In this document: piece after piece, positions 10,982-39,320 of the stretch
Numbering within the stretch: the first letter of the stretch is position 1
Layout of the letters: each line of letters opens with the position of its first letter
Source: a virus
Reading direction: 5' to 3' (one strand)
DNA: 44,997 nucleotides
IMG/VR virus record: IMGVR_UViG_3300005537_000012
Coordinates: 1 to 44,997 of that record
The notes under the pieces: generated by a model
Seen by the model: only the letters and a program-made list of their open reading frames with translations
What the model was told of the DNA's origin: nothing
Database searches by the model: none
Made by a program: the position numbers and the translations under genes

Positions 10982-13900
10982 TTGCTATACGCAGACCTAC
11001 TTGACGTTCCGATTGAGGTCTTTGGCGGATATACTCCTGCAATTCCACCGCAGAACCTTCCGCCAGGGGCCTCTCCTTTTTGTCAGGATGTTGAATTTCC
11101 AATGGGTTCTGTCCGCCAGCGTGGAGGTTTGCAGAATTCTTTTCCATTTGCGACTTTTCCACCGACAGCTGCTATAAATGGTTTAAAGACGTATAGTACT
11201 CCTACTCTTGTAAAACGTCTTATGGTTTGGGATTCATTTGGAAATCTTTATAAAGAAAATCCACAAGGAGTTCTTAATCTTCTTTTTTCTCGGCCACAAG
11301 GAGCAAATACTCTTTATCAGTCAACCACTTTGTTTGGTCGTGAATATCAAGCTTTCTTGTCAAATTTAGGAAATGCCGTTGATATTCCTCGCCAATATGA
11401 TGATACAAACTGGGATAGAGTAAGCCAGATAGGACCTGGAGCGGCGCCGACCGCGGTTCAATCTGCTACAGCCGGAAATATTGCTGTTGGAAATCATCAA
11501 GTAAGTGTTGCCTTTATAACCAGGCAGGGTTATATCACATTTCCTGCTGTTCCACCGACAACCTGGAACCAGGCTGGAGCAAGTAAGCAAGTTGATTTAA
11601 CCAATATTCCGATTGGTCCTCCAAATATAGTTGCAAGGCTTCTGATTTTTACACCAGTTATTATTGCCCCGGCTGTTACTGGTACTTTTTACTCATTGCC
11701 AAATGGAAATTCTCAATTAACAACAAATACGTTAATGCTCATAAATGATAATATAACTACGGTATATACCGTTGATTTTACGGATGCAATTCTCATTACT
11801 GGTTTTAACGCTACTTATTTGTTCACTCAAAGAGAACTTGGAGAATGTTCTTTTGCTGGTGGATACAATTCCAGAACAGTATTTCTTGGTGAACGTAATA
11901 AACAGCAAAATGTCGTGAATTTTACTTTTGATGGTGGTTTTGGTGGTGGGGCAATAAATCCTACTCTTGGTTCTCAAGGCCCAAACAATTGTTCAGTTGG
12001 TTCTGATATTGCTGTTACAAGTGGAGTTGCATGGAGCAATCCTGGGAATATTGCCATAGCGGCTCAAAGCGCTACATTTGCAGCTGGATTAAATGCTAAT
12101 AAGTTTTCTGATTATTTAAGGGCAACAGGATTTGGATTTATAATACCGTCAGCCGCCACTATTCTTGGAATAACTGTAACTATCTCAAAAAGACAAGGTG
12201 GAGTCCAGAAACAACTTTATGACCGCTCTGTTCTTATAGTTAAGGGTGGTAATGCTGCTGGATTTGACCATTCAAATGGGCTTATCTGGCCAACAGCGCT
12301 TACACCTTTTGTTTATGGAGGTTCTGGAGACCTTTGGGGAACTACTTGGCTTCCCGCTGATATCAATGCCGCTAATTTTGGAGTTCAGATTCAATGTACT
12401 AATACTGATGTTTCAGCTGCTTCTCCTATAGTAAGTGCTTTTGTCACAATTACTGTTAATTATAGTTTGCCGGCGGTTGGCGGAGCGGTAGGACCGTTGG
12501 GATGGACTCAGACTGCTTCTTATGGTGGTGGAAGTTCGGCGATTACTGCCGGTCTTCTAGGAGATTGGCAGGATGCTTTTGCAATTACTGGTGACGGGGC
12601 AACAAATGTAAGAGGAAAAATCACACAACCAGTAAATAAAGATTATTTTGGAGCTCCTATTATTGCTCCGGCGACTACTTATCAAGTCAGAGTTAGATTG
12701 GCAAGAAATAATATTCTTGTCCAGGGAGCCATACATATTGATTTACAATCAACAATTGGGGCTTTTACAACTTCAGGTTTAATTGTTCAGGCAGCTCAGC
12801 TTACAACCAATTTTGTTGAATTTATCGGAGTATTGACAGCGGCAATTGCCGCTCCTCCTTCTGACTTAGTGATAGAAGTTTATGCGGATGGAACTCCTAC
12901 CAATGGTGGAATATTCATAATTGATTCAATTGAAATATTCCCGATGAATTCTCCGTTCAATTATTCAACGGCATGGCTTTCTCATGCTTTTAATCCTGAA
13001 TCATTTGATAATACTACAAGTCAGATTCAGATTCGCCCTAATGACGGGCAACAGCTTCATGCTGCATTTCCTATAAGGAATAATTATTATTTTGGAAAAG
13101 ACAATTATTTGTGCTATGTAACTGATGACGGTCAGAATGAGCCGGCATCCTGGGCAGTTAATGAAGTTTCAGCAACTATCGGCATTGCTGGTCCTAATGC
13201 CTGTGATTGGACTGAGGAATGGGCGGCATTTGCTCATCGAACTGGAGCATACTTATGCTGGGGTTCAGACCCGGTTAAAATTACGCAAGAAATTGAAGAA
13301 GATGCTTCATTAACAGGTAAGATTGTCTGGAATTCTATTAATTGGGCTTTTGACTTTAATATATGGGTGCGTATTGACCAAACTAATCGTAGAATTCTAA
13401 TTGGTGCACCAGTAAATGGAGCCGTTGTTCCAAATATTGTTTTTGTTCTTGATTATAAATGGCTTGATTCTCCGCAGGATATTGCTTCTAGCCCCATGGT
13501 TACTTATTCGGCTTTTACCGGTAAAATCCTGGCTCATGGGCGAGGCCGGCGTTGGACTTATTGGAATATCGCTGCAAGCAGCATGTGTTTTGCTGAACGA
13601 ACTGATGGAACTGCTCAGCCGTTTTTTGGAAATTCAGCAGGTAATGGAAATGTCTGGCAGCAGGTTCCTTGCAACGTGCAAGCTTATGACCAGTTAGTGA
13701 CAGGCATTGGTATCACATCTCTAATTATCAATGCTGTTTATAACAGTTATTTTGCTCCATCAGGAATGGAAGAACAAGGACTTCAACTTGGTGGGCACCA
13801 GAAACTTCTTGGTTATATTAAATGGAGTGCTCGTGGAACGGGAAATTTATTTTTGTCAATTGTTTCTGGAAGTAGAACAACAGTATTGAGGACTTATGCT

Positions 13901-14068
13901 CTTTCACTTACTCCACTATCTGATTCAGGCCGCGGAGTAAATATTAAAAGTGAACGATTTTCTTTTAGCATATCAACGAATGCTGTTGGTTCTTGGTTTC
14001 AGTTGGAAAAATGGATTTTTTGTATGAAGAAGGCACCAACAATGCTTGTCACAGGTACGAATACATGA
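10982..14068 (+). CDS. Large tail structural protein (1028 aa; position of a nozzle / tail tubular B-like gene)
   Basis: TTG start after GGGGG. Longest ORF in the genome, AT-richer than its neighbours. Assignment is by size and order. Confidence 0.6.
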   Translation: MLYADLLDVPIEVFGGYTPAIPPQNLPPGASPFCQDVEFPMGSVRQRGGLQNSFPFATFPPTAAINGLKTYSTPTLVKRLMVWDSFGNLYKENPQGVLNLLFSRPQGANTLYQSTTLFGREYQAFLSNLGNAVDIPRQYDDTNWDRVSQIGPGAAPTAVQSATAGNIAVGNHQVSVAFITRQGYITFPAVPPTTWNQAGASKQVDLTNIPIGPPNIVARLLIFTPVIIAPAVTGTFYSLPNGNSQLTTNTLMLINDNITTVYTVDFTDAILITGFNATYLFTQRELGECSFAGGYNSRTVFLGERNKQQNVVNFTFDGGFGGGAINPTLGSQGPNNCSVGSDIAVTSGVAWSNPGNIAIAAQSATFAAGLNANKFSDYLRATGFGFIIPSAATILGITVTISKRQGGVQKQLYDRSVLIVKGGNAAGFDHSNGLIWPTALTPFVYGGSGDLWGTTWLPADINAANFGVQIQCTNTDVSAASPIVSAFVTITVNYSLPAVGGAVGPLGWTQTASYGGGSSAITAGLLGDWQDAFAITGDGATNVRGKITQPVNKDYFGAPIIAPATTYQVRVRLARNNILVQGAIHIDLQSTIGAFTTSGLIVQAAQLTTNFVEFIGVLTAAIAAPPSDLVIEVYADGTPTNGGIFIIDSIEIFPMNSPFNYSTAWLSHAFNPESFDNTTSQIQIRPNDGQQLHAAFPIRNNYYFGKDNYLCYVTDDGQNEPASWAVNEVSATIGIAGPNACDWTEEWAAFAHRTGAYLCWGSDPVKITQEIEEDASLTGKIVWNSINWAFDFNIWVRIDQTNRRILIGAPVNGAVVPNIVFVLDYKWLDSPQDIASSPMVTYSAFTGKILAHGRGRRWTYWNIAASSMCFAERTDGTAQPFFGNSAGNGNVWQQVPCNVQAYDQLVTGIGITSLIINAVYNSYFAPSGMEEQGLQLGGHQKLLGYIKWSARGTGNLFLSIVSGSRTTVLRTYALSLTPLSDSGRGVNIKSERFSFSISTNAVGSWFQLEKWIFCMKKAPTMLVTGTNT

Positions 14069-14259
14069 TGCGTACATGTGAATGGTCTGGATGTGTTAAT
14101 TGGTCCCAATGGATAGTGCGTAAACTTGTAAATGAAGAGTGGAAAATAATCAGGAGGCTTTGTCAGAAGCATAAAGAAGAATATCAAAAACATGCAACTG
14201 ATAAAGATATTAAATATTCTTTTGTAGGAGCAGAACCAAGTGGCCTTAACAATACCTAA
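14065..14259 (+). CDS. Small Cys/Trp-rich protein (64 aa)
   Basis: ATGA overlap with the stop of the 1028-aa ORF. Sequence MMRTCEWSGCVNWSQW... Confidence 0.4.
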   Translation: MMRTCEWSGCVNWSQWIVRKLVNEEWKIIRRLCQKHKEEYQKHATDKDIKYSFVGAEPSGLNNT

Positions 14260-14401
14260 TCTGGATAAAATTATTAAGCAAGACCCTAAACTCGGGGAAG
14301 CTTTGACAAAAGTCCAGGTTTATGAAAATCAAAACGTTCCGGTGGTCCCAGGCAATCGGCGCCAGCCACCAGGTTTTGTGAATCCAGGAGTGCCAAAGTA
14401 A
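14240..14401 (+). CDS. Possible small protein (53 aa, GTG start)
   Basis: AGGAG 9 nt upstream of GTG 14240. Stop TAA 14399-14401 abuts the next ATG (14402). Not in the ORF track. Confidence 0.3.
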   Translation: MALTIPNLDKIIKQDPKLGEALTKVQVYENQNVPVVPGNRRQPPGFVNPGVPK

Positions 14402-14791
14402 ATGATTTTTATCCGCCCATATACAGAGCAGGACCTGGAACAAATCAAGGCTTTGCATAAAGCCCAGGGATTTGAATATGAACTCCCGACGGAACTACTT
14501 CCAGCATCAGCTGTTATTGAAGAAAATGGCGGGATAACTCACGCTCTTTTGCTACGTATGACTTCTGAAGCTTATTGGTTGTTTGACCCAAAAGTCCAAA
14601 GCCGACGTGAACGCCTTGGACGGATGCTAATGCTGAGAAAAGAAGTTTCATTTGTTGCAAAGAAAATCGGGCTGGAAGATATTCATGCTTGGATTCCAAG
14701 AAGTTTGTCGGAAAACAAGTGCTTTAATACAACGCTTTTAAGACTTGGATGGGAGCGGCAAGAATGGCAGCCGTATAGGTATCAACTATGA
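14402..14791 (+). CDS. GNAT-like (acetyltransferase-fold) small protein
   Basis: MIFIRPYTEQDLEQIKALH N-terminus and ..LFDPKVQSRRERLGRMLM..IHAWIP..N..F...LLRLGWER resemble GNAT beta1 / motif A / C-terminal patterns. The Q/RxxGxG/A motif is imperfect. Confidence 0.5.
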   Translation: MIFIRPYTEQDLEQIKALHKAQGFEYELPTELLPASAVIEENGGITHALLLRMTSEAYWLFDPKVQSRRERLGRMLMLRKEVSFVAKKIGLEDIHAWIPRSLSENKCFNTTLLRLGWERQEWQPYRYQL

Positions 14792-15399
14792 AAATAGCTA
14801 CAAAAGTTGTATTTGACCCGGAAACCTTTGCACCGACTGTAATTGAGTGGTATAAATATGATGGTCCTATTGACCAGATGCGCGGTGCTGCATCGGCAGC
14901 GAAGACCCAGCTTCAAACAACAAATCAAATTGGAGGACAACAGCAGGCGAAGGCAAATACTCTTGAAAATCAGTTGATTCCTGGTTATACATCATTAATG
15001 GATACAGGTTATTTGAGCCCTGAAGAGGAAGCCGCAGCAACTCAAACAGAAATGGGAACTGCCACACAGCCTTTTGAGAATGCAAAATTTGGCGCTGCGG
15101 ATAGAGCCGCGGCAACCAGGAATGCTTCAGATTTGACTGCCCAGCAGGACCAATTGGCTCTCGAGGAAGGCCAAACAGCTGGTGGAGCAGCAGCGAACCT
15201 GCAGCAACAGAAGATGCAGAACCAGCTTTCCGGTATGTACGGCCTTGGGCAAGAACAACAACTGAATACAACTGAAGCTGAAAGCATGTATGGTCTAGCG
15301 CCATCAACAATTAATGCCTGGTCGAATGCTCAGAATAATAACCCAATGCTGAATTTTGCCGGCAAACTCGTTGGAGCAGCCGGGTCAGCCGCGGCATAA
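14788..15399 (+). CDS. Q/A-rich putative internal virion (ejection) protein
   Basis: ATGA coupling. Low-complexity Q/A-rich sequence. Position matches the T7 gp14-like block. Confidence 0.5.
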   Translation: MKIATKVVFDPETFAPTVIEWYKYDGPIDQMRGAASAAKTQLQTTNQIGGQQQAKANTLENQLIPGYTSLMDTGYLSPEEEAAATQTEMGTATQPFENAKFGAADRAAATRNASDLTAQQDQLALEEGQTAGGAAANLQQQKMQNQLSGMYGLGQEQQLNTTEAESMYGLAPSTINAWSNAQNNNPMLNFAGKLVGAAGSAAA

Positions 15400-28938: not shown

Positions 28939-30728
28939 GATGTTTCCTTCCAATTATCTCCTTCAGAACATTCCCAGGTTATTGGTACCCGCAGTTTGAA
29001 TTCTTGAATCGCAAAACATTCTTCTAAATCTTTAAACTTCTTCAAATTCTTTCGTTCATCGTAAAGTCTCTTTAACTTTAGCTTCATCAGGTCAGCAGCA
29101 CTGCCCTGAAGAATCGAATTAAGCCCTGAATAAAAACGGTCGCCAGTATGATAACGACGACGACGGCCAAGAATAGTGCGAACGTAACCGCGCTTCTCAG
29201 CCAGTTCGGAGCAATAGTATAGTAACCGCTTAGCTTCAGGTACTTTTGCATCATATTGGTCCATAAGTCCTTGAACATAGTCAATGTCATTTGTTCCCAG
29301 CATGGATGCCGCTTTATCCACACCGCCTCCATATAGTTTCATGAAATTGAAATTTTTAGCATGGTCGTATATCATGCATTCTTTGAGGAGCTCTTTATGT
29401 ACAAACTTGTGGAAGCTTATGTTTGGGTCGTTCGCATAAGCTTCAATTAACCGCTTTGAATACGGTCGTGGCACGCAAGAAAAGTGGGCGAATAGCCGGT
29501 ATTCAATTTGGCTGGCATCGGCGTGGAACCAACGGCCACCAAGGTCCCCGTTAACTTCGTCATGTACTGTGAACCGCATCAGGAAGTTTTCATGTCCACC
29601 AGATATAAACAACTCTCTGACTAACCAGGGGGAGGTTACCGGCGACTGAATCTTTTGCTTTGATGGCTTATAAACCTGCTGGATATTCACTTTGCTCGAG
29701 GCAAACCGGCCAGTTATGGTTCCATAATCATCAGCTCGTAACTGATGGAGCTGGTAGGGTAGATATCCATCCGGCGTCATTGCATCACGATATTTGATTA
29801 AATATTTCGACAGCAAACTGGCCAGGTCCCTGGCCTCAGACACCAACTGGACTTCTTTTATTTCAATATATTTATTCAGAATTACATCAGTAAAGCTGTC
29901 TTCACCGGCTGCGGTTCTTCCAGGTTTAATATTAAGATATTTGAATAGTTTTGATAAATCTTTTGATGAATCAGGCGATACCCGCAAACCTGTCCGCCGG
30001 TAGATTTCCATAATACGCGCGGCATAGGCTTCCTGGACTTCCCGTATCCAGCGATGAAGCTTCGGAACATCCAACTTGACTTTTTCCCGCTCCATTGACA
30101 ATATGCAATATATTAGACTATCTTCCAGGTCTATAACCCGGCGTAATTCTTGCTCAGCAATGTCTCCATCATAAACCATCGCCAAATCGTAAGTCAGCCT
30201 GGCATCATGTCTGGCATATGGCGCAGCCAGGTCCACGGGTATATCGGGTATTTCTGCTCGAGGAATCTCCCGACCATTAAGCTTTGGAACTACTTTTCCT
30301 ATTCCTAACCTGTCCTGGGCAAGAGTTTCCAGGTCAAACTTCCTTCGTGAATCGTCTAATAATGCCGCGGCATGCTGTACTTCATGAGGTATTACCCCGA
30401 TGGCTTCCAGGTCCACGCCAAATTCTCTTAAACGCTCGATGTCATTCTTTGCTGCCCTGAAGAATACTTCCCGGCCAGCCAGGTTGTCAATCAACCAGTT
30501 TTTAAGGTTCTCCGGGTCGTACTGCTTGCCTTCCGGATGCCCGCAAGGAAGGTACCACTCGCTGCCAGCCGTGGCCAGGGAGACCCCGACGACCGGCGAC
30601 CCTGGTCCCAGGCCGCGATGTTCGGTATCCAGCGCAATGAACTCGCCAGGCTCCAGGACCGGGAACCGGTCCAGGGAACCCGACGACTTCTCACCTGACA
30701 AGTTTAATTTGAGCTGTGGTATAATCAT
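28935..30728 (-). CDS. Family-A DNA polymerase with 3'-5' exonuclease domain (atypical motif order)
   Basis: Exo I ALDTE, Exo II KNDIERL, Exo III YARHDARL. Motif A HADASQIEYR, motif B HAKNFNFMKLYGG, QGSAADLMK. VHDE lies at aa 388-391. Confidence 0.9.
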   Translation of the reverse strand: MIIPQLKLNLSGEKSSGSLDRFPVLEPGEFIALDTEHRGLGPGSPVVGVSLATAGSEWYLPCGHPEGKQYDPENLKNWLIDNLAGREVFFRAAKNDIERLREFGVDLEAIGVIPHEVQHAAALLDDSRRKFDLETLAQDRLGIGKVVPKLNGREIPRAEIPDIPVDLAAPYARHDARLTYDLAMVYDGDIAEQELRRVIDLEDSLIYCILSMEREKVKLDVPKLHRWIREVQEAYAARIMEIYRRTGLRVSPDSSKDLSKLFKYLNIKPGRTAAGEDSFTDVILNKYIEIKEVQLVSEARDLASLLSKYLIKYRDAMTPDGYLPYQLHQLRADDYGTITGRFASSKVNIQQVYKPSKQKIQSPVTSPWLVRELFISGGHENFLMRFTVHDEVNGDLGGRWFHADASQIEYRLFAHFSCVPRPYSKRLIEAYANDPNISFHKFVHKELLKECMIYDHAKNFNFMKLYGGGVDKAASMLGTNDIDYVQGLMDQYDAKVPEAKRLLYYCSELAEKRGYVRTILGRRRRYHTGDRFYSGLNSILQGSAADLMKLKLKRLYDERKNLKKFKDLEECFAIQEFKLRVPITWECSEGDNWKETS

Positions 30729-31152
30729 ATTTATATAGGATAATCATCTGGCTTAGAATCTTCGCGCCTTCGGAGTCGGCGTAATCCTCCAGCACGATTA
30801 CCCTCCTGATGCCGGTATTCAGAATCATCTTGGCGCACACGAAGCATGGGCAGCAGCTTACATAGATTGTATGGGCCAGGTCCAGGCGCCAGCATTGAAG
30901 CATGGCATTCTGTTCAGCATGGATAGCCATGCAGCGGGAAGTATCTCCATGTCTGTCATAAGCTCCGGGGCAGGGCATGTCCTGGATACAGTGCTGGAAT
31001 CCTGAAGGTGGCCCGTTGTATCCGGTCGAGAGTATCCGCCCGCGCTCATCAGTTATGATTGCTCCAACCGACCGACGCACACAAGTGGACCTAGCGGCAA
31101 CATCTACCAGCATCTTCACGAAGTAAGTTTCTTTTGAATCACGCACGGACAT
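30691..31152 (-). CDS. dCMP deaminase
   Basis: ARSTC..VGAIITD...HAEQNA...CPCFVCAK zinc motifs. Start chosen at the ATG overlapping the ThyA-like stop. Confidence 0.85.
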   Translation of the reverse strand: MSVRDSKETYFVKMLVDVAARSTCVRRSVGAIITDERGRILSTGYNGPPSGFQHCIQDMPCPGAYDRHGDTSRCMAIHAEQNAMLQCWRLDLAHTIYVSCCPCFVCAKMILNTGIRRVIVLEDYADSEGAKILSQMIILYKYDYTTAQIKLVR

Positions 31153-32032
31153 CCTCCAAATAAGCAAGAGCCTCAGCATTGGTTGCAGAAGCCAGTACCT
31201 TCTCGTAAATTTTCCAGACATCATTGAGTTCAAATCCAAGGGCACTCGGGTCCACCAGGCGGTTGATGCCAGCCGGCAACGACAACGAGGTTGGCAGCTG
31301 CGGACTTCTCCCGCTCCTGCCCATCGGCGCATTCACAATCCCTCTGGCCAGTTCCCAGTGTGGTTCATAGATATGCGATGAACCTAGGTTGAGGGTTATG
31401 GACCCCAATGCTATTGGCCAGCGCAGAGCGTGGCGCAAGGCGCCGACCAGGAAATTACCAAGCATTGTGAAGTTATAGATATCATATGGTAGCCCAAGCC
31501 AGGCATCAGAACTCCGCATAGTAGCTATGATATGCAGGTACCAGTTGCGGCTCGTCCATTCAGACTGCCGGCGAAGAAGAAATTGGAGTGAGAGAGTGCA
31601 TGGAACATATCGTTCATAAGCTGTTATCTTTATATCTGATTGAGCTTCCCATATACTCATCACAGCTTGGCGGCTTTCTGGGTCACGGGATAATGTCCCC
31701 AGAATGAATGGCCACTGAGGTGCTAGCCGCGGACCATATGACGGATAGACTCCACCCTGGCCATCAGTTTCGTAGCCGGCCAGGTTCTTGTTAAACCGCT
31801 CGAGCAATTTGTCTTCAAGACCAAGCTGAGTTGTCAGCCACTGGGCGACCAAGAACCGGTAGTTGAGTTTTCGTTCCGGGTCAATGAGAATGTTCTGATA
31901 GGCATCTTCAATAATTAACCTGGTATGAATCGCCTCTCGGCATGGTTTTCCGCGTGGAGATACAATGGGTTGTTGTAAAAGCGTATTCAATAATACTACC
32001 CAATTGTGATAAATTCCATTTTCAGGTGTCAT
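31139..32032 (-). CDS. Thymidylate-synthase-family pyrimidine C5 transferase, predicted dCMP-specific (hydroxymethylase or methylase)
   Basis: VPCTLSLQF (catalytic Cys145), MRSSDAWLGLPYDIYNF (Asp184 where TS has Asn), SSHIYEPH. RBS AAGGAGAA. Confidence 0.8.
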   Translation of the reverse strand: MTPENGIYHNWVVLLNTLLQQPIVSPRGKPCREAIHTRLIIEDAYQNILIDPERKLNYRFLVAQWLTTQLGLEDKLLERFNKNLAGYETDGQGGVYPSYGPRLAPQWPFILGTLSRDPESRQAVMSIWEAQSDIKITAYERYVPCTLSLQFLLRRQSEWTSRNWYLHIIATMRSSDAWLGLPYDIYNFTMLGNFLVGALRHALRWPIALGSITLNLGSSHIYEPHWELARGIVNAPMGRSGRSPQLPTSLSLPAGINRLVDPSALGFELNDVWKIYEKVLASATNAEALAYLEDVRA

Positions 32033-32823
32033 GGGCTGTTTCTCCTTATCTGGGCAAGTTCGCGGTTGGTTTTCTTCAAAGGCTCATCAATAATTGTGGC
32101 TGGCACAAACTCTCTGAATTCTACCGATACTTCCGTATTGCAGAACGCAATTTCATGTTCTTTGTAACCTGACCGGAACACTTTTCTAGTCAGTTTCATA
32201 TAACTTCCGGTCATGTCATCAAACTTCATGCCAGGAACTACGAAGATAAACCGCGGCCGCTGGCTGCCGACCATGCCGGCCGGCAACGGGTTCCCTTCAA
32301 TTTTCTCGAGGGACTTCGCCACACTCCGGTAGTTCCATCTGGTATAATCATACCAGATATAATTCCGATTCAATCTCACGTTAAACAATCTATTTACATA
32401 TTGATTATAAACCGAGCTGAACTTCACAGCATCCTGGACATATTCATCTTTTTGCCGGCCAAGCCAATTTGCCAGGGCAACACGCTTCGGCGGAATACAC
32501 ATCACAATCTGGCCGTCAATTGCCTCGATGTATCGCTCAAGTATATTTTGAACATCCGGAGTCATTACCCATTCTTTACGCATGACCGCGCCATAGATAG
32601 CATCAGAGATGTGGAAACGGTCACAGACGATTTTTAAATTCGGTTCCTGGGCAGCACTGTAGAGCGGGTCGTAGAAAAAGTGAAAGATAGATTCTTCCGA
32701 TACCCTGGCTTCAGGCGGAGGTATGCCAAACTTCAGGAGCTTGTATCCTTGTCTTTCGACGAGCTCGGCGGCCAGGGTAGACTTGCCGGAACCGTCAGGT
32801 CCTTCGAGGATTATGACTCTCAA
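32029..32823 (-). CDS. Thymidylate-kinase-like dNMP kinase with a C-terminal extension of about 90 aa
   Basis: TTG start after GGGGAGG. P-loop ILEGPDGSGKST and CDRFHISDAIYG. Confidence 0.7.
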   Translation of the reverse strand: MRVIILEGPDGSGKSTLAAELVERQGYKLLKFGIPPPEARVSEESIFHFFYDPLYSAAQEPNLKIVCDRFHISDAIYGAVMRKEWVMTPDVQNILERYIEAIDGQIVMCIPPKRVALANWLGRQKDEYVQDAVKFSSVYNQYVNRLFNVRLNRNYIWYDYTRWNYRSVAKSLEKIEGNPLPAGMVGSQRPRFIFVVPGMKFDDMTGSYMKLTRKVFRSGYKEHEIAFCNTEVSVEFREFVPATIIDEPLKKTNRELAQIRRNSP

Positions 32824-33938
32824 AACAACCTCCCCTGTTTCACTTGTTTTTTAGTCACAGTAAAATCAGCAACCTCGCCAGGTTTCACAACACGTACCAT
32901 ACTGGTCACGGCGTCCAGGTCCGCCAGCCTGACAGTTTTAGAGGTATTTATTTGCATCATTTCAAGAATCCACTTTGCGACCGGCGGGCAGACTCCTTTG
33001 CTGAGGTACAACCGAAAGTCTCTGAGGGTCCTACCTGGCCATTTATAATCGCCTGGGAATCCCATCAGGGCACAATACTCCTCAAGATACAGCTCCCTTC
33101 CCATTACGAAGAAACTAGAATCATGGAGGATTGTGGTCCCGAATTCTTCCGGGTTCAGAACCCGCGGGAGTTTCACGCCGAACCGGCCACCCAGGTTCCA
33201 GCGGTCCCGCACTTCCTGATAGTTCGGCCCTGGGTCATCTATGTCAAGTAACTTCTTGCCTATTTGGAGTAATGAACCTATATGCTCACCAGATAGTAAT
33301 TCCTTGTAGATTCGCTTTTCAGTGAACCCGGCGCCTACCAGGCATTTCACAGCATCGCGAATCTCCGCATTTGGCTCCAGGGTGGTTCCCTTTCGCAGCA
33401 GGATATCACGGACCCGACGGATGTTTGGATAGTGGTGTAAAATCAATTGTGGTAACTTAGTAAAGATTGTCCAGACCCGCGGGCGCCACTGAGGCACACC
33501 AAATGTCACGGCATTCTGATGAATATAGAATACATTGTACTTGTACTTTTTGGCAAACTCCTCGTGAACCTGGCGGCCGGCCGCCAGGATGCCCGGAACA
33601 GATTCAATGGCCAGCGCCGGAGCTCCCTGGCTTAAAGCATAATCCATAACCATTTTATGAGGTAGGAAGTGGTCCGAGTCGATGCCCTTGCGGTATGGTG
33701 ACTGGGTAGAGAATGCAGCGCAGGGAGGGTGAGCGATAACCAGGGAGTGATGCAAATGGTCCTTCGGCCAGGGAGGTTTCTCTATATACTTCAGGTCTGG
33801 GAAGTTAGCTCGCTGGACCGGTAGACCAAAACCGCAATCTTCATAAGAGCCACGGATAGGTAAACCAAGCTGCGATGCGGCAATTGTGAGACTGCCGGCG
33901 TAGGAATTAATGATGAGAACATCATTGGGCGGTTTCAA
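32820..33938 (-). CDS. DNA (cytosine-5) methyltransferase
   Basis: Motif I NSYAGSL, IV HPPCAAFS, VI AIESVPG, VIII GVPQWRPRVW, IX-X MGFPGDY..SKGVCPPVA. TTG start with an in-frame TAA two codons upstream. Confidence 0.8.
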   Translation of the reverse strand: MKPPNDVLIINSYAGSLTIAASQLGLPIRGSYEDCGFGLPVQRANFPDLKYIEKPPWPKDHLHHSLVIAHPPCAAFSTQSPYRKGIDSDHFLPHKMVMDYALSQGAPALAIESVPGILAAGRQVHEEFAKKYKYNVFYIHQNAVTFGVPQWRPRVWTIFTKLPQLILHHYPNIRRVRDILLRKGTTLEPNAEIRDAVKCLVGAGFTEKRIYKELLSGEHIGSLLQIGKKLLDIDDPGPNYQEVRDRWNLGGRFGVKLPRVLNPEEFGTTILHDSSFFVMGRELYLEEYCALMGFPGDYKWPGRTLRDFRLYLSKGVCPPVAKWILEMMQINTSKTVRLADLDAVTSMVRVVKPGEVADFTVTKKQVKQGRLF

Positions 33939-34445
33939 GTTTTAAGCATGGTCAATGTTAGCGACTTATCCTTTCAAATTTTTCGCCGGGCAGGCGGGCA
34001 TAACCGTCAAGGAAATATGCCCCAGGACCAGGTTGAAATGATTCCTGTGTTCCCGTATTGCCTGCCCGGTGCACCTGGCTATAACTGACCGCTTGACCGG
34101 CCTGCCAGGATTATCATGGCGTGCTCCTGTGCTTTTGCTCTCTGCCCGATACCACCCAGTGCTTTACACGCGAAGGCTCTCGCTCATCGCGCAGTTTTCC
34201 AGATGCCACCCTGCTATCCTTTTATTTGCAGTTTAGAACTCCTGCTCTCCAAGCCAGTTACCAATCTGCAAAGAAGCTAAGCTGTGCACAGCCTTGACGG
34301 ATGCATTTTCTTCGAGCACATATCAGCCTCGGGCCAAGCGGGCTTTGAAGCACGCCTGCCGGATACCCAGGATTAGGCCCATAAACCTAATGGATTACGA
34401 CTTGGGAGGCATAATCCCTATGCCCGGATATCCGGCAGGGGAGCT
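33939..34445. ncRNA. Candidate large structured RNA or structured leader (about 507 nt with no credible ORF)
   Basis: Nested complementary arms: 33984-33995/34060-34071, 33996-34002/34016-34022, 34074-34079/34104-34109, 34118-34125/34349-34356, 34355-34365/34429-34439 with three inner hairpins. GC content is not low. Strand undetermined. Confidence 0.4.
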
Positions 34446-34676
34446 TCATTCCCCTGGTACTGTTCCAATTGAATCTCCAACTATTGGTGCGGCAGGTTTT
34501 GGTATATACGGCTGCCTCAGCCTGGCGGCCGACCGGATGCGCACTTCCCGACCAGTGGCCAGGTTGGTGCCATACCAGCCGCCAAAGACGCTTATCCGGT
34601 CCACCCGGACCTTAACCAGCCGGCCGGATACCTTGACCACGTAGACACCCTTGAGAACTACGTCAGCTTTATTCAT
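34446..34676 (-). CDS. Small beta-rich hypothetical protein (76 aa)
   Basis: Strong RBS GAGGAGGG 4 nt before the ATG. Confidence 0.55.
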   Translation of the reverse strand: MNKADVVLKGVYVVKVSGRLVKVRVDRISVFGGWYGTNLATGREVRIRSAARLRQPYIPKPAAPIVGDSIGTVPGE

Positions 34677-34793
34677 ACGACCCTCCTCAAGGTACTATCT
34701 GCCAGGGAACCATTACCGCGTCCGTAAGGTTCTCCACCACGCTTAGTGCCAGCAGATAGGACCTGGAGGGGAGTCATACGACTCCCACACGTA

Positions 34794-39090: not shown

Positions 39091-39320
39091 GTCGGATACT
39101 CGCCTAAGCATATTTTGAGTATCTGAGTATCTGACTACCTAAGCCCTTGTATTATCAGCGAGTTAGCCTTTACTCATCTATGAGTATCCGAATGAGTATC
39201 TGAGTATCGGTCAAATACTCAAGTGAGGTCGGATACTCAAGTCAGATTACCATTGAATGAGTAAAGCTAAGTATAACTAAATATATATACTTAGATAGTC
39301 AGATACTCAGATACTCAACG
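39091..39320. repeat. Array of at least 10 GAGTATC/GATACTC heptamer sites (iterons or operators) plus an AT-rich 9-bp inverted repeat
   Basis: Forward copies at 39117, 39125, 39182, 39194 and 39202. Reverse copies at 39095, 39232, 39302 and 39310, with a variant at 39214. Tandem pairs are 8 bp apart. ctaagtata/tatacttag at 39268-39276 and 39286-39294. Confidence 0.7.

What the first reader, a model, noticed from the sequence alone, without database searches (positions are those of the whole stretch)
33939..34445. 507-nt ORF-free, GC-normal region with many nested long-range helices: candidate large structured RNA or leader upstream of the C5-MTase
Elsewhere in the genome, genes overlap or are separated by tens of nt. 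Here about 507 nt carry no ORF on the operon strand. The only + ORF (34294-34644) overlaps a well-supported minus-strand gene. The region is not AT-rich, so it does not look like an origin or promoter.

I can pair the following (+ strand coordinates):
- 33984-33995 with 34060-34071 (12 bp), enclosing hairpins 33996-34002/34016-34022 (7 bp) and 34023-34027/34043-34047
- 34074-34079 with 34104-34109
- 34118-34125 with 34349-34356 (8 bp, spanning about 230 nt)
- 34355-34365 with 34429-34439 (11 bp), closing a multi-helix junction of 34366-34371/34401-34406, 34372-34377/34386-34391 and 34408-34413/34419-34424
- a 12-nt palindrome, gctgtgcacagc, at 34281-34292

The MTase downstream starts with TTG and has no Shine-Dalgarno, so the structure could also control its translation.

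Two G-T pairs (33985/34070 and 34370/34402) would be G-U only in a + sense transcript. Another helix I found has its wobble pair in the minus sense. The strand is therefore unresolved. I could not match the region to any RNA family I know (RNase P, tmRNA, group I/II introns, common riboswitches).
Basis: seen in the sequence. Interest (0 to 1): 0.7.

Follow-up and report, generated by a model that had tools for sequence, protein, structure and literature searches.

The report
New structured RNA in phage operon
The 507-base gene-free gap carries a real folded RNA, read on the same strand as the neighbouring genes; its 240-base knotted core recurs in three other uncultured phages, matches no catalogued RNA family, and has no known function.

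Summary
Window 33939-34445 has no credible ORF and normal GC.

Related contigs settle three points.
- **Strand:** the RNA is minus-sense, the same sense as the operon.
- **Layout:** the gap is modular.
  - Module A, 34355-34448, is a three-way junction.
  - The core, 34118-34356, is about 240 nt.
  - Hairpin Y spans 34074-34109.
  - Module B, 33984-34071, is a three-way junction.
- **Core:** it is a discrete domain closed by a stem (P1) whose sequence differs in each lineage. It carries invariant blocks of 30 nt and 16 nt, helix P3 that covaries in all four lineages, and a likely pseudoknot (P2).

The core occurs in four distinct phage contigs. A fifth relative keeps A, Y and B but has lost the core.

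On the curated core model, 96.8% of cells pair. Seventeen pairs changed on both sides, against 2 or fewer in slid controls.

Nothing matches in Rfam 15, in cultured phages or in plasmids.

The methyltransferase's TTG start without a Shine-Dalgarno is better explained by a TGA/TTG overlap with an upstream mini-ORF than by the RNA fold.

Function is unknown. My best guess is an autonomously folding RNA domain inside the early operon transcript. I file it as a new RNA family.

The parts
34355..34448 (-). Module A, a three-way junction that starts at the UGA stop of the 76-aa gene. Closing stem: 34423-34439 with 34355-34371. Hairpin A1: 34392-34417, with the anti-SD-like loop CCUCCCAAGU at 34400-34409. 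Hairpin A2: 34372-34391. An optional basal extension UGAAGC (34443-34448) / GCUUCA (34346-34351) competes with P1.
   Evidence: It is the longest local inverted repeat in the window and appears in the MFE fold. Against L072 the closing stem keeps pairing through C-G to U-A and G.U to U-A changes, and 6 of the 8 A1 stem pairs changed on both sides while the loop stayed the same. L003 has a 12-bp version. Coordinates were checked.
34118..34356 (-). Core RNA domain of 239 nt. P1: 34347-34356 / 34118-34127. Invariant 5' block UCAAAGCCCGCUUGGCCCGAGGCUGAUAUG: 34319-34348. P2, a putative pseudoknot: 34329-34338 / 34140-34149. P3: 34315-34320 / 34128-34133. Hb: 34280-34293. Hc: 34266-34272 / 34225-34231. 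Hd: 34187-34191 / 34169-34173. He: 34199-34205 / 34153-34159. Invariant 3' block GGUAUCGGGCAGAGAG: 34138-34153.
   Evidence: Homologous domains occur in L072:478-723, L082:10218-10489 (minus strand) and L083:1286-1488. On the curated model 96.8% of cells pair and 17 pairs changed on both sides, against 2 or fewer in slid controls and 0 of 500 shuffles. Helices were checked by direct reading in all four sequences. A covariance model built without L083 finds L083 at 49.5 bits, E about 2e-16. Window-to-L072 identity is 82.6%, against 70.6% and 73.1% for the flanking genes.
34074..34109 (-). Hairpin Y. Outer stem: 34104-34109 / 34074-34079. Inner stem carries the invariant loop GUCAAG at 34092-34097.
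   Evidence: Both stems covary among the window, L072 and L003. The loop is identical in all three and complementary to CUUGAC in the loop of module B.
33984..34071 (-). Module B, a three-way junction. Closing stem: 34060-34069 / 33986-33995. One arm spans about 34023-34050. The other arm is hairpin 33996-34022, with the invariant 13-nt loop UUUCCUUGACGGU at 34003-34015.
   Evidence: Y+B folds with z = -4.55. The Y+B consensus has 40 pairs, 14 of them with changes on both sides; these include 3 in the B closing stem and a G-C to C-G swap in the hairpin stem of L003. The loop is 100% conserved although third codon positions of the adjacent gene are only 55.8% identical.
33935..33955 (-). Mini-ORF UUGACCAUGCUUAAAACUUGA. 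Its UGA stop overlaps the TTG start of the C5 methyltransferase (33936-33938). It is downstream of the RNA and separate from it.
   Evidence: L003 has the same arrangement (AUGACCAAAUAUAGAACUUGA), and so does L072, where a 46-aa ORF ends AAAACUUGA.

Best explanation
The gap encodes a sense-strand (minus) structured RNA that is co-transcribed with the phage's early DNA-metabolism operon.

Its centre (34118-34356) is an autonomously folding domain of about 240 nt and belongs to a previously uncatalogued family.
- A closing helix P1 of free sequence and length (10-22 bp) insulates it from the surrounding mRNA.
- P3 stacks on P1.
- Two invariant blocks of 30 nt and 16 nt are complementary over 9 bp (P2). 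P2 crosses P3 to form an H-type pseudoknot.
- Variable peripheral hairpins (Hb, Hc, Hd, He) fill the interior.

I infer that this domain works through its folded, invariant core as a binding or catalytic platform. It could act while still in the transcript or after release at P1. I do not think it works by simply base-pairing with an mRNA.

The lineage-specific modules most likely act as cistron-boundary structures.
- A sits on the stop codon of the upstream 76-aa gene.
- Y and B sit just ahead of the ribosome-binding site of the next small ORF. That ORF is translationally coupled to the methyltransferase.

What is shown and what is inferred:
- Shown: the fold, the strand, the modularity, the conservation and the family distribution.
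- Inferred: transcription, any processing, the P2 pseudoknot and every functional statement.

The confidence of 0.5 applies to this whole mechanistic reading. The narrower claim, that this is a real, selected, minus-strand structured RNA of a new family, I put at about 0.9.
For: **Fold**
- z-scores.
- Covariation. The core has 17 double-changed pairs against 2 or fewer in slid controls.
- P3 differs in every lineage and pairs in all of them: UGUGCU/AGCACA, UGCACU/AGUGCA, UGCGAU/AUCGCA, UGGU/ACCG.
- P1 differs in each lineage: 10 bp in the window and L072, 22 positions of which 20 pair in L082, 12 bp in L083.

**Strand**
- The minus-strand fold is 23 kcal/mol more stable than the plus.
- Many pairs are G.U only on the minus strand.
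- In all contigs the element has the same sense as its flanking genes.

**Selection**
- The core is 82.6% identical between the window and L072. The flanking genes are 70.6% and 73.1% identical.
- The 28-nt motif has 0-1 mismatches in four contigs whose neighbouring proteins are unrelated or about 50% identical.

**Independent domain**
- In L082 and L083 the core starts 0-8 nt after a stop codon, with its own P1 and without A.
- L003 keeps only the P1 stem, as the hairpin GGCGUG-CUU-CACGCC.

**Pseudoknot rather than the nested alternative**
- The nested pairing that RNAalifold chose for the 3' block (GGUG/UAUC) does not form in L083. This is by direct reading of the sequences.
- P2 is available in all four sequences and appears in the MFE fold of L083.

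**Not coding**
- No ORF or reading frame is shared.
- No Pfam hits to any translated stretch.
- No remnant of the LAGLIDADG gene or of the small ORFs.
- The compensatory changes in the B hairpin are non-synonymous in the only shared frame.

**New family**
- No Rfam hit, even at E <= 10, on the window region or on the four relatives' loci L003, L072, L082 and L083.
- No tRNA or tmRNA.
- Nothing in INPHARED phages or PLSDB plasmids.
Against: - There are only four independent core sequences from three lineages. No R-scape-grade statistics are possible, and the count of invariant positions is inflated.
- P2 is invariant, so covariation cannot prove it. A local hairpin (AGCCCG/CGaGGCU) competes with it.
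- No expression data exist and the host is unknown. No promoter or terminator delimits a separate transcript.
- The element is dispensable. It is absent from methyltransferase relatives at 60-68% identity, from other contigs with the 76-aa gene, and from 79 of 80 IMG/VR loci that carry the 76-aa family.
- No common protein partner or downstream gene points to a function.
Confidence: 0.5

Rival explanations
1. A new self-cleaving ribozyme. The conserved part (P1, the invariant junctions, the P2/P3 pseudoknot; about 80 nt once the variable insert is removed) would cut the polycistronic transcript between the upstream and downstream cistrons.
For: - The strand order a-b-a'-b' gives a pseudoknot, with invariant junction nucleotides and freely varying peripheral helices and closing stem.
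- The element sits between cistrons, in the same sense as them, with no consistent gene partner. From my own knowledge, this is the usual setting for twister, hatchet, pistol and HDV-like ribozymes, many of them phage-associated.
Against: - No hit to any ribozyme model in Rfam at E <= 10.
- Read directly, there is no hammerhead CUGANGA core (the sequence is CUGAUAU).
- There is no G.U pair at the base of the helix that would correspond to HDV P1; that pair is C-G.
- Nothing computational can show cleavage.
Confidence: 0.15
2. A riboswitch-like cis regulator. The core would be an aptamer whose invariant block switches between the local hairpin and P2 when a ligand binds. This would alter expression of the downstream small ORF and, through coupling, of the methyltransferase and nucleotide-modification genes.
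For: - The domain is closed by P1, pseudoknotted, and sits in an mRNA leader.
- The invariant block has mutually exclusive pairings.
- In the window, L072 and L003, module B ends about 10-15 nt before the SD and AUG of the next ORF.
- DNA methylase genes lie nearby in two lineages.
Against: - The downstream genes are not the same across lineages.
- P1 is long and stable, up to 22 positions in L082. It lies 100-160 nt from the RBS, so a switch inside it has no evident route to an expression platform.
- No terminator or SD-sequestering alternative was found.
- L003 keeps B and the downstream arrangement without the core.
- No Rfam riboswitch matches.
Confidence: 0.12
3. Nothing more than mRNA-processing or stability hairpins. 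Like the T7 early region, the operon would be punctuated by long stem-loops (RNase III sites or 3'/5' protective hairpins), and the whole gap would be a cluster of these.
For: - The two longest local inverted repeats of the window flank the 76-aa cistron: module A, and the 34673-34781 hairpin that buries its SD and AUG. Both are conserved in L072.
- P1 in L082 spans 22 positions, 20 of them paired.
- A starts on the stop codon. In L082 and L083 the core starts 0-8 nt after one.
Against: - Processing hairpins need only duplex shape. That does not explain 46 invariant nucleotides, a covarying P3 nested with P1, conserved hairpin loops (UGCA, UUUCCUUGACGGU, GUCAAG, CCUCCCAAGU), or a non-coding core better conserved than the adjacent genes.
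- This reading can hold for A, and partly for B, without covering the core.
Confidence: 0.1
4. A DNA-level element: a replication origin, a packaging site, protein-binding sites, or the remnant of a mobile element or decayed gene. The locus would be an insertion hotspot.
For: - Distribution is patchy.
- A free-standing LAGLIDADG endonuclease occupies the same position in L006 and L007.
- Different small ORFs are inserted or deleted after B.
- The GTCAAG/CTTGAC motif recurs.
- The window-versus-L003 difference looks like an exact gain or loss of the core inside a hairpin loop.
Against: - Compensation is strand-specific, with G.U pairs that would be A.C on the other strand.
- There are no terminal inverted or direct repeats typical of a transposable element beyond the stems themselves.
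- No protein remnant is present.
- The region is not AT-rich and does not lie at the strand-switch or skew turning points, which are near 24 kb and 39-40 kb.
- The iteron-like repeats lie elsewhere, at 39181-39317.
Confidence: 0.05

Closest known systems
Large 'ornate' phage- and prophage-borne ncRNAs of unknown function (GOLLD RF01998, ROOL RF03087, OLE); cryo-EM shows homo-oligomers (PMC12286853)
   Same: - Lies between phage genes and folds into many helices, with a pseudoknot and A-rich junctions.
- Strong sequence conservation in unpaired blocks.
- No obligatory protein partner and no known function.
- Hairpin Hb has a palindromic loop (UGCA; L083 has a GCGC-loop hairpin) that could in principle mediate self-association.
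   Different: - No match to those covariance models, even at E <= 10.
- Much smaller: a 200-270 nt core against 580-800 nt.
- Not next to tRNAs; none are present in the window.
- Very rare in the collections I searched.
- Oligomerisation is pure conjecture here.
RNase III processing hairpins between early cistrons of T7-like phages (my own knowledge)
   Same: - Long imperfect stem-loops sit exactly at cistron boundaries in a same-sense polycistronic early operon: module A, the 34673-34781 hairpin, and P1 of L082.
- They could define mRNA ends and stabilise them.
   Different: - T7 sites are defined by shape, not by invariant sequence or pseudoknots.
- The core's 46 invariant nucleotides and its conserved loops go beyond that.
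- Cleavage is untested.
Small self-cleaving ribozymes with pseudoknotted cores (HDV-like/theta, twister, hatchet, pistol)
   Same: - Pseudoknot strand order a-b-a'-b'.
- Invariant junction nucleotides, with free variation of the closing stem and peripheral helices.
- Phage intergenic context.
   Different: - No model hit.
- The defining features of HDV-like ribozymes (G.U at the base of P1, P1.1, a catalytic C in J4/2) and of the hammerhead (CUGANGA ... GAAA) are not present on direct reading.
- The large insertion sits where HDV has its 3-bp P3.
Riboswitch aptamers closed by P1 (for example pseudoknotted classes such as c-di-GMP-II, SAM-II/V, ZTP)
   Same: - A P1-closed, pseudoknotted, sequence-invariant domain in an mRNA leader.
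- Alternative pairings are available within the invariant block.
   Different: - No coherent downstream regulon.
- P1 is too long and too far from the RBS.
- No expression platform.
- No Rfam match.
Candidate structured RNAs mined from IMG/VR (Fremin, Bhatt and Kyrpides 2023, PMC10690425)
   Same: - The same kind of object: an intergenic motif in uncultured phage contigs that is supported by covariation.
- Two of the four core copies are IMG/VR contigs.
   Different: - That workflow kept only models matching at least three unique IMG/VR regions. My pattern scans find the invariant motif in only two IMG/VR contigs, so it was probably not reported.
- The paper's supplementary tables were not available to check.

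Membership tests
Any Rfam 15 family (including GOLLD, ROOL, OLE, HEARO, group I/II introns, RNase P, tmRNA, riboswitches, ribozymes) | Covariance-model score at or above the family's gathering threshold | tested here: not met
   There were 0 hits at gathering threshold in the whole window. In E-value mode (E <= 10), the 1-kb region gave only sRNA-Xcc1 at 17.8 bits (cut-off 53) and AS-traG at 16.2 bits (cut-off 58). L072 and L003 gave only a CRISPR-DR25 chance hit. L082 and L083 gave nothing.
Group I intron | Interrupts a gene, so that the flanking exons join into one reading frame | tested here: not met
   The methyltransferase N-terminus is complete and starts at the same residue in relatives that lack the element. 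An in-frame stop lies 2 codons upstream of the TTG. The upstream and downstream genes differ between lineages.
Group I intron | P3-P7 pseudoknot with the P4-P6 domain between the 5' strands of P3 and P7, and P8 between P3' and P7' | tested here: not met
   Here only 9 nt separate the two 5' strands, and the large insertion lies between the second 5' strand and the first 3' strand. RF00028 gave no hit.
HDV-like self-cleaving ribozyme | Nested double pseudoknot with a G.U wobble at the base of P1, a 2-bp P1.1, a short P3, and a catalytic C in J4/2 | tested here: not met
   Only the a-b-a'-b' strand order is shared. The first pair of the corresponding helix is C-G in all four sequences. A 130-190 nt multi-helix insert replaces P3. 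There was no Rfam hit.
Self-cleaving ribozyme (any class) | Site-specific self-scission | not testable with these tools
   This needs in vitro transcription and cleavage assays.
Riboswitch | Conserved aptamer upstream of functionally coherent genes | tested here: not met
   The downstream genes differ. They are a mini-ORF plus C5 methyltransferase (window), a 46-aa Zn-ribbon ORF (L072), an unrelated 140-aa Zn-ribbon protein (L082), and other small ORFs (L083).
Riboswitch | Expression platform (a terminator or SD sequestor) that competes with the aptamer's P1 | tested here: inconclusive
   No intrinsic terminator follows the core or B. In the window and L072, GCUUCA of the P1 5' strand can instead pair with UGAAGC at the stop codon of the upstream gene, but this does not touch any RBS.
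Riboswitch | Ligand binding | not testable with these tools
   This needs in-line probing or ITC.
T7-type RNase III processing site | Intergenic stem-loop of about 20 bp or more, often with an internal loop, in a polycistronic transcript | tested here: met
   Module A has 17 bp, or 32-nt arms at 81% complementarity with its basal extension. The 34673-34781 hairpin has 30-nt arms at 80%. P1 of L082 pairs at 20 of 22 positions.
T7-type RNase III processing site | Cleavage by RNase III | not testable with these tools
   This needs an enzyme assay or transcript-end mapping.
Intrinsic terminator | GC-rich hairpin followed directly by a U tract | tested here: not met
   The only terminator-like site in the gap is Hb (6 bp, tail AGCUUCUUUG). 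The count is within the shuffle expectation: 2 found against a mean of 1.8. A and B are followed by CAGGCG and CGAAAAA.
Protein-coding gene or pseudogene | A conserved reading frame, or similarity to a protein family | tested here: not met
   Stop-free stretches differ in frame between the window, L072 and L003. Ten translated stretches gave no Pfam hit. tblastn with the LAGLIDADG protein or the neighbouring small ORFs found nothing in the gap.
New family proposed here (core domain) | P1 closing stem, the 5' block UCAAAGCCCGCUUGGCCCGAGGCUGAUAUG, P3, and the 3' block AUCGGGCAGAGAG followed by the P3' and P1' strands | tested here: met
   All of these features are present in the window, L072, L082 and L083. 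Model R1, built from three of them, recovers the fourth at 49.5 bits and finds nothing else in 0.69 Mb of related loci.

The most novel reading that the evidence does not exclude
The core is a new functional RNA class, either a self-cleaving ribozyme or a ligand- or protein-sensing switch.

Its 46 invariant nucleotides would form a bistable pseudoknot: the local hairpin AGCCCG/CGaGGCU against the long-range P2, CUUgGCCCGA/UCGGGCaGAG. If each nucleotide is constrained by two alternative partners, that would explain why the block never varies.

The palindromic hairpin loops and the loop-loop complementarities would build a higher-order or multimeric architecture. The B loop CCUUGACGG is complementary to CCGUCAAGG in the core and to GUCAAG in Y.
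Probability: 0.2. Interest if true: 0.85.

Novelty: new member of a known kind. Interest (0 to 1): 0.68.

Why it matters
Structured RNAs of 200 nt or more that combine a pseudoknot with long invariant blocks are uncommon. When followed up, such RNAs have repeatedly turned out to be ribozymes, riboswitches or RNA-only assemblies.

This one has three notable properties.
- It is absent from Rfam.
- It is better conserved than the protein genes around it.
- It is shared by phages whose neighbouring genes are otherwise unrelated. It is therefore under strong selection of its own, and it may be exchanged between phages.

The finding gives a concrete, testable object:
- coordinates, strand and a helix-by-helix model;
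- four natural variants;
- one natural deletion variant (L003).

The analysis also clarifies how this operon is organised. The 76-aa gene is bracketed by long hairpins, and the TTG-started methyltransferase depends on translational coupling.

If the core proves catalytic or ligand-responsive, it would be a new class. If it proves to be only a stability or processing cassette, it is still a clean new RNA family for phage annotation.

Tried and rejected
1. **Known RNA families.** Four cmscan runs, two of them covering relatives, and ARAGORN found nothing.

2. **Close DNA relatives in cultured phages and plasmids.** None.

3. **Exact-pattern scans with the module B loop.**
   - The metagenome scan gave 60 hits. 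All proved unrelated: coding regions, or clonal copies of other organisms.
   - The genome scan gave 7 hits, also unrelated.
Aiming them at the core motif would have been better.

4. **IMG/VR scans.** Scans with module A/B motifs and a core-interior motif found nothing. Scans with the core 5' block found L082 and L083. A scan using both P2 strands with a gap found only L082.

5. **Anchoring on the 76-aa protein family.** Of 80 IMG/VR loci, only the L082 contig has the core.

6. **Decayed LAGLIDADG gene or small protein gene.** Rejected.

7. **Group I intron splitting the methyltransferase.** Rejected. The N-terminus is complete, an in-frame stop is present, and the strand order is wrong.

8. 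**Sigma-70 promoter reading of TTGACG in the B loop.** No acceptable -10 element lies at 16-19 nt, by direct reading and.

9. **A1 loop CCUCCCAAGU pairing with the SD of the 76-aa gene (CUUGaGGAGG).** Possible in the window with a one-nucleotide bulge, less good in L072. I left it as a note, not a claim.

10. **B-like junctions after the core in L082 and L083.**
   - L083 has a 10-bp-closed three-way junction (z = -2.3).
   - The L082 spacer is not significantly structured (z = 0.12).
   - nhmmer sees no homology, so I do not claim that B is shared.

11. **Counting family members through spurious ORFs in the protein database.**
Full report
**1. Context**

The window is essentially a whole 45,038-bp metagenomic contig, ENA ERZ27279678 k141_2696177. 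Its identical 76-aa protein is also recorded in JGI and Logan data, so the sequence is not a one-off assembly artefact.

The gap lies in a minus-strand operon. In the direction of transcription the genes are:
- a Prim-Pol/AAA_25 primase-helicase;
- small ORFs;
- a 238-aa protein;
- a 76-aa protein (34446-34676);
- the gap;
- a C5 DNA methyltransferase (32820-33938, TTG start);
- a thymidylate-kinase-like protein;
- a ThyA-like protein;
- dCMP deaminase;
- DNA polymerase A.

**2. Checking the observation**

The gap has no credible ORF on either strand. Its GC content is normal.

It folds better than shuffled sequence, and better on the minus strand:

| Segment | MFE (kcal/mol) | z-score |
|---|---|---|
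| Gap, minus strand | -198.6 | -3.45 |
| Gap, plus strand | -175.5 | -2.61 |
| Y+B segment, minus strand | -62.1 | -4.55 |

Module A is the longest local inverted repeat in the 45 kb.

**3. Relatives**

Methyltransferase homologues and 76-aa homologues were traced to their contigs.

| Locus | Relation to the window | What occupies the locus |
|---|---|---|
| L072 | 76-aa protein 78% identical | Whole element, 75% identity over 732 nt |
| L003 | Methyltransferase 88% identical | A, a short hairpin X, Y and B; the central ~230 nt are missing |
| L004 | Methyltransferase 60-68% identical | Unrelated 216-nt spacer |
| L006, L007 | Methyltransferase 60-68% identical | Free-standing LAGLIDADG endonuclease gene |
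| L008, L010 | Methyltransferase 60-68% identical | Short gaps |
| L073, L074, L164 | Carry the 76-aa gene | No element |

A scan of IMG/VR for the central conserved block then found two further phage contigs, L082 and L083. They carry only the central domain.

**4. Anatomy (RNA sense is the window's minus strand; coordinates verified)**

*Module A (34355-34448).*
- It is a three-way junction whose basal extension begins with the UGA stop of the 76-aa gene.
- The closing stem (34423-34439 / 34355-34371) keeps pairing in L072 through double changes.
- The stem of hairpin A1 changed on both sides at 6 of 8 pairs, while its loop CCUCCCAAGU stayed the same.

*Core (34118-34356).* The four copies compare as follows:

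| Feature | Window | L072 | L082 | L083 |
|---|---|---|---|---|
| P1 | GGCGUGCUUC / GGAGCACGCC | same as window | 22 positions, 20 paired, unrelated sequence | UUCGGCAGUCUC / GGGACUGCCGAA |
| P3 | UGUGCU / AGCACA | UGCACU / AGUGCA | UGCGAU / AUCGCA | UGGU / ACCG |

- The inner U.G and C-G pairs of P1 are conserved in all four.
- P3 abuts P1 on the 3' strand.
- Between them lie an invariant 30-nt block and an invariant 16-nt block. These are complementary over 9 bp (P2, CUUgGCCCGA / UCGGGCaGAG). Because one P2 strand is 5' of P3 and the other is inside it, P2 makes an H-type pseudoknot.
- P2 never varies, so covariation cannot test it. RNAalifold, which cannot draw pseudoknots, preferred a nested alternative: a local hairpin plus GGUG/UAUC. 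That alternative fails in L083 on direct reading. P2 is possible in all four sequences and appears in the MFE fold of L083.
- The interior hairpins covary among the window, L072 and L082:
  - Hc goes UUUGCAG/CUGCAAA, then UUUAUAG/CUAUAAA, then UUCGCG/CGCGAA;
  - He goes CAUC.../...GGUG, then CGUC/GGCG.
- L083 has a different, shorter interior.

*Hairpin Y and module B.* These are supported by 14 double-changed pairs among the window, L072 and L003.

**5. Statistics**

On the curated core model (42 pairs, 3 sequences):
- 96.8% of cells pair;
- 17 pairs changed on both sides;
- no slid-partner control exceeds 2 such pairs or 51% pairing;
- 0 of 500 column shuffles reach the observed values.

A covariance model built without L083 recovers L083 at 49.5 bits (rough E of 2e-16). 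It finds nothing else in 0.69 Mb of related loci.

Window-to-L072 identity by segment:

| Segment | Identity |
|---|---|
| Core | 82.6% |
| Y+B | 77.6% |
| Methyltransferase 5' end | 73.1% |
| 76-aa gene | 70.6% |
| Module A | 66.0% |

Against L003, third codon positions of the methyltransferase are only 55.8% identical. Even so, a 22-nt stretch (the 3' strand of A plus the 5' strand of X) is identical, and the B hairpin block is identical apart from one compensating G-C to C-G swap in its stem.

**6. Strand**

The strand is minus, for three reasons.
- The minus-strand fold is 23 kcal/mol more stable.
- About 22 of the 139 predicted pairs are G.U on the minus strand. These would be A.C on the plus strand.
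- In every contig the element has the same sense as its flanking genes.

**7. Not coding and not a known RNA**

- No reading frame is shared between homologues.
- The two substitutions in the B hairpin of L003 compensate each other in the RNA stem but are non-synonymous in the only shared frame.
- There are no Pfam hits and no remnants of the LAGLIDADG gene or the small ORFs.
- Rfam 15 gives nothing at gathering thresholds and only noise at E <= 10, on the window region and on the loci of the four relatives L003, L072, L082 and L083.
- There are no tRNAs or tmRNA.
- INPHARED and PLSDB have no match.
- IMG/VR holds the invariant motif in only two contigs. This is below the three-region minimum of the published IMG/VR structured-RNA survey (PMC10690425), so the family was probably not reported there. 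I could not check that paper's supplement.

**8. The methyltransferase start**

In all three relatives the TTG overlaps the TGA of an upstream ORF, within the shared AACTTGA:
- L072: a 46-aa zinc-ribbon ORF preceded by GGAG;
- L003: the mini-ORF MTKYRT*;
- window: UUGACCAUGCUUAAAACUUGA.

This is the classic arrangement for termination-reinitiation coupling. That is an inference from established knowledge and was not tested here. It accounts for the odd start without any role for the RNA fold.

**9. What it most likely does**

*Shown:*
- a conserved, minus-sense, modular RNA structure;
- a core that is an independent domain, because it travels without A, Y and B in L082 and L083, and is cleanly absent from L003, where only its P1 stem remains as the hairpin GGCGUG-CUU-CACGCC.

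*Inferred:*
- The core acts through its folded, invariant centre as a binding or catalytic platform, either within the operon transcript or after release at P1. P1's free sequence and its length of up to 22 bp look like an insulating or processing stalk, not a switchable riboswitch helix.
- A marks the boundary of the upstream cistron, together with the 34673-34781 hairpin that buries the SD and AUG of the 76-aa gene. Y and B mark the boundary of the downstream one.

*Probabilities:*

| Reading | Probability |
|---|---|
| Real, selected, minus-strand structured RNA of a new family | ~0.9 |
| Embedded autonomous domain (mechanistic reading in Best explanation) | ~0.5 |
| Self-cleaving ribozyme | 0.15 |
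| Riboswitch-like regulator | 0.12 |
| Only processing or stability hairpins | 0.10 |
| DNA-level or mobile remnant | 0.05 |

*Suggestive but unproven details:*
- The invariant block can form two exclusive pairings, which could explain its invariance.
- The B loop CCUUGACGG is complementary to GUCAAG in the Y loop (all three sequences) and to CCGUCAAGG in the core (window and L072).
- Hb, and a hairpin in L083, have palindromic loops.

**10. Comparison with known systems, and novelty**

It resembles the orphan ornate phage RNAs (GOLLD, ROOL) in kind, and T7 RNase III sites in position. Small pseudoknotted ribozymes and riboswitch aptamers share its topology. It fails the testable membership criteria of each named family (see Membership tests).

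I file it as a new member, meaning a new family, of the known kind 'conserved structured RNA of unknown function in phage operons'.

**11. Limits**

- There are only four core sequences from three lineages.
- There are no expression data and the host is unknown.

Noticed in passing
window 34673-34781 (minus strand); L072:60-156: This is the second-longest local inverted repeat of the window (30-nt arms, 80% complementary). It pairs an upstream CUCCCCUCC with the SD GAGGAGGG and the AUG of the 76-aa gene. The same arrangement is conserved in L072, with a different interior. It is likely a translational-repression or RNase III hairpin.
   Followed up: partly
window 33935-33955; L003 about 813-838; L072:878-1018: The TTG start of the C5 methyltransferase overlaps the TGA of an upstream ORF in all three relatives (AACTTGA). 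The ORF is a 6-codon mini-ORF in the window and L003 and a 46-aa zinc-ribbon ORF in L072. This points to translational coupling rather than an SD-driven start.
   Followed up: partly
L006:3543-4004 and L007:175-636: In methyltransferase relatives at 66% identity, a free-standing 153-aa LAGLIDADG-type homing endonuclease gene occupies the same position upstream of the methyltransferase, and its end overlaps the methyltransferase start. The locus is a hotspot for insertions.
   Followed up: partly
L003:703-816 and L003:299-450: L003 carries a 37-aa hydrophobic small ORF with a strong GGAGG SD between module B and the methyltransferase. It also has an extra, strongly structured stretch of about 155 nt 5' of module A (the whole gap folds with z = -5.24). 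Neither is present in the window.
   Followed up: no
window 39181-39317: Iteron-like inverted repeats of TGAGTATC (16 nt at 100% complementarity, plus variants) and an AT-rich palindrome lie in the divergent intergenic region where the gene strand and GC skew switch. This is a candidate origin or operator region.
   Followed up: no
window about 11000-15000: A low-GC block (0.38-0.43 against about 0.50 elsewhere) covers the 1028-aa ORF at 10982-14068 and its neighbours. It may be a horizontally acquired tail-fibre or host-range module.
   Followed up: no
window 34446-34676 (76-aa protein): This small protein belongs to a widespread family with no Pfam or PHROG assignment, recognisable by KVSGxL...GGWxGTNLATGREVRIRSAARLR. 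The family has 47 clusters in the protein collection and 93 IMG/VR loci, and one member comes from a Bryobacteraceae MAG. The RNA accompanies it in only three contigs.
   Followed up: partly
L082:10490-13187 (minus strand): In L082 the core RNA lies directly downstream of a RAMA-domain protein (PF18755). That protein is preceded by the 75-aa family member, a zinc-ribbon protein and an N6/N4 DNA methylase. DNA methylation genes therefore neighbour the RNA in two unrelated arrangements, which may be coincidence.
   Followed up: no
window 30691-33938: The C5 methyltransferase, a thymidylate-kinase-like protein, a divergent ThyA-like protein and dCMP deaminase sit in one operon ahead of PolA. This suggests the phage modifies its pyrimidines.
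   Followed up: no
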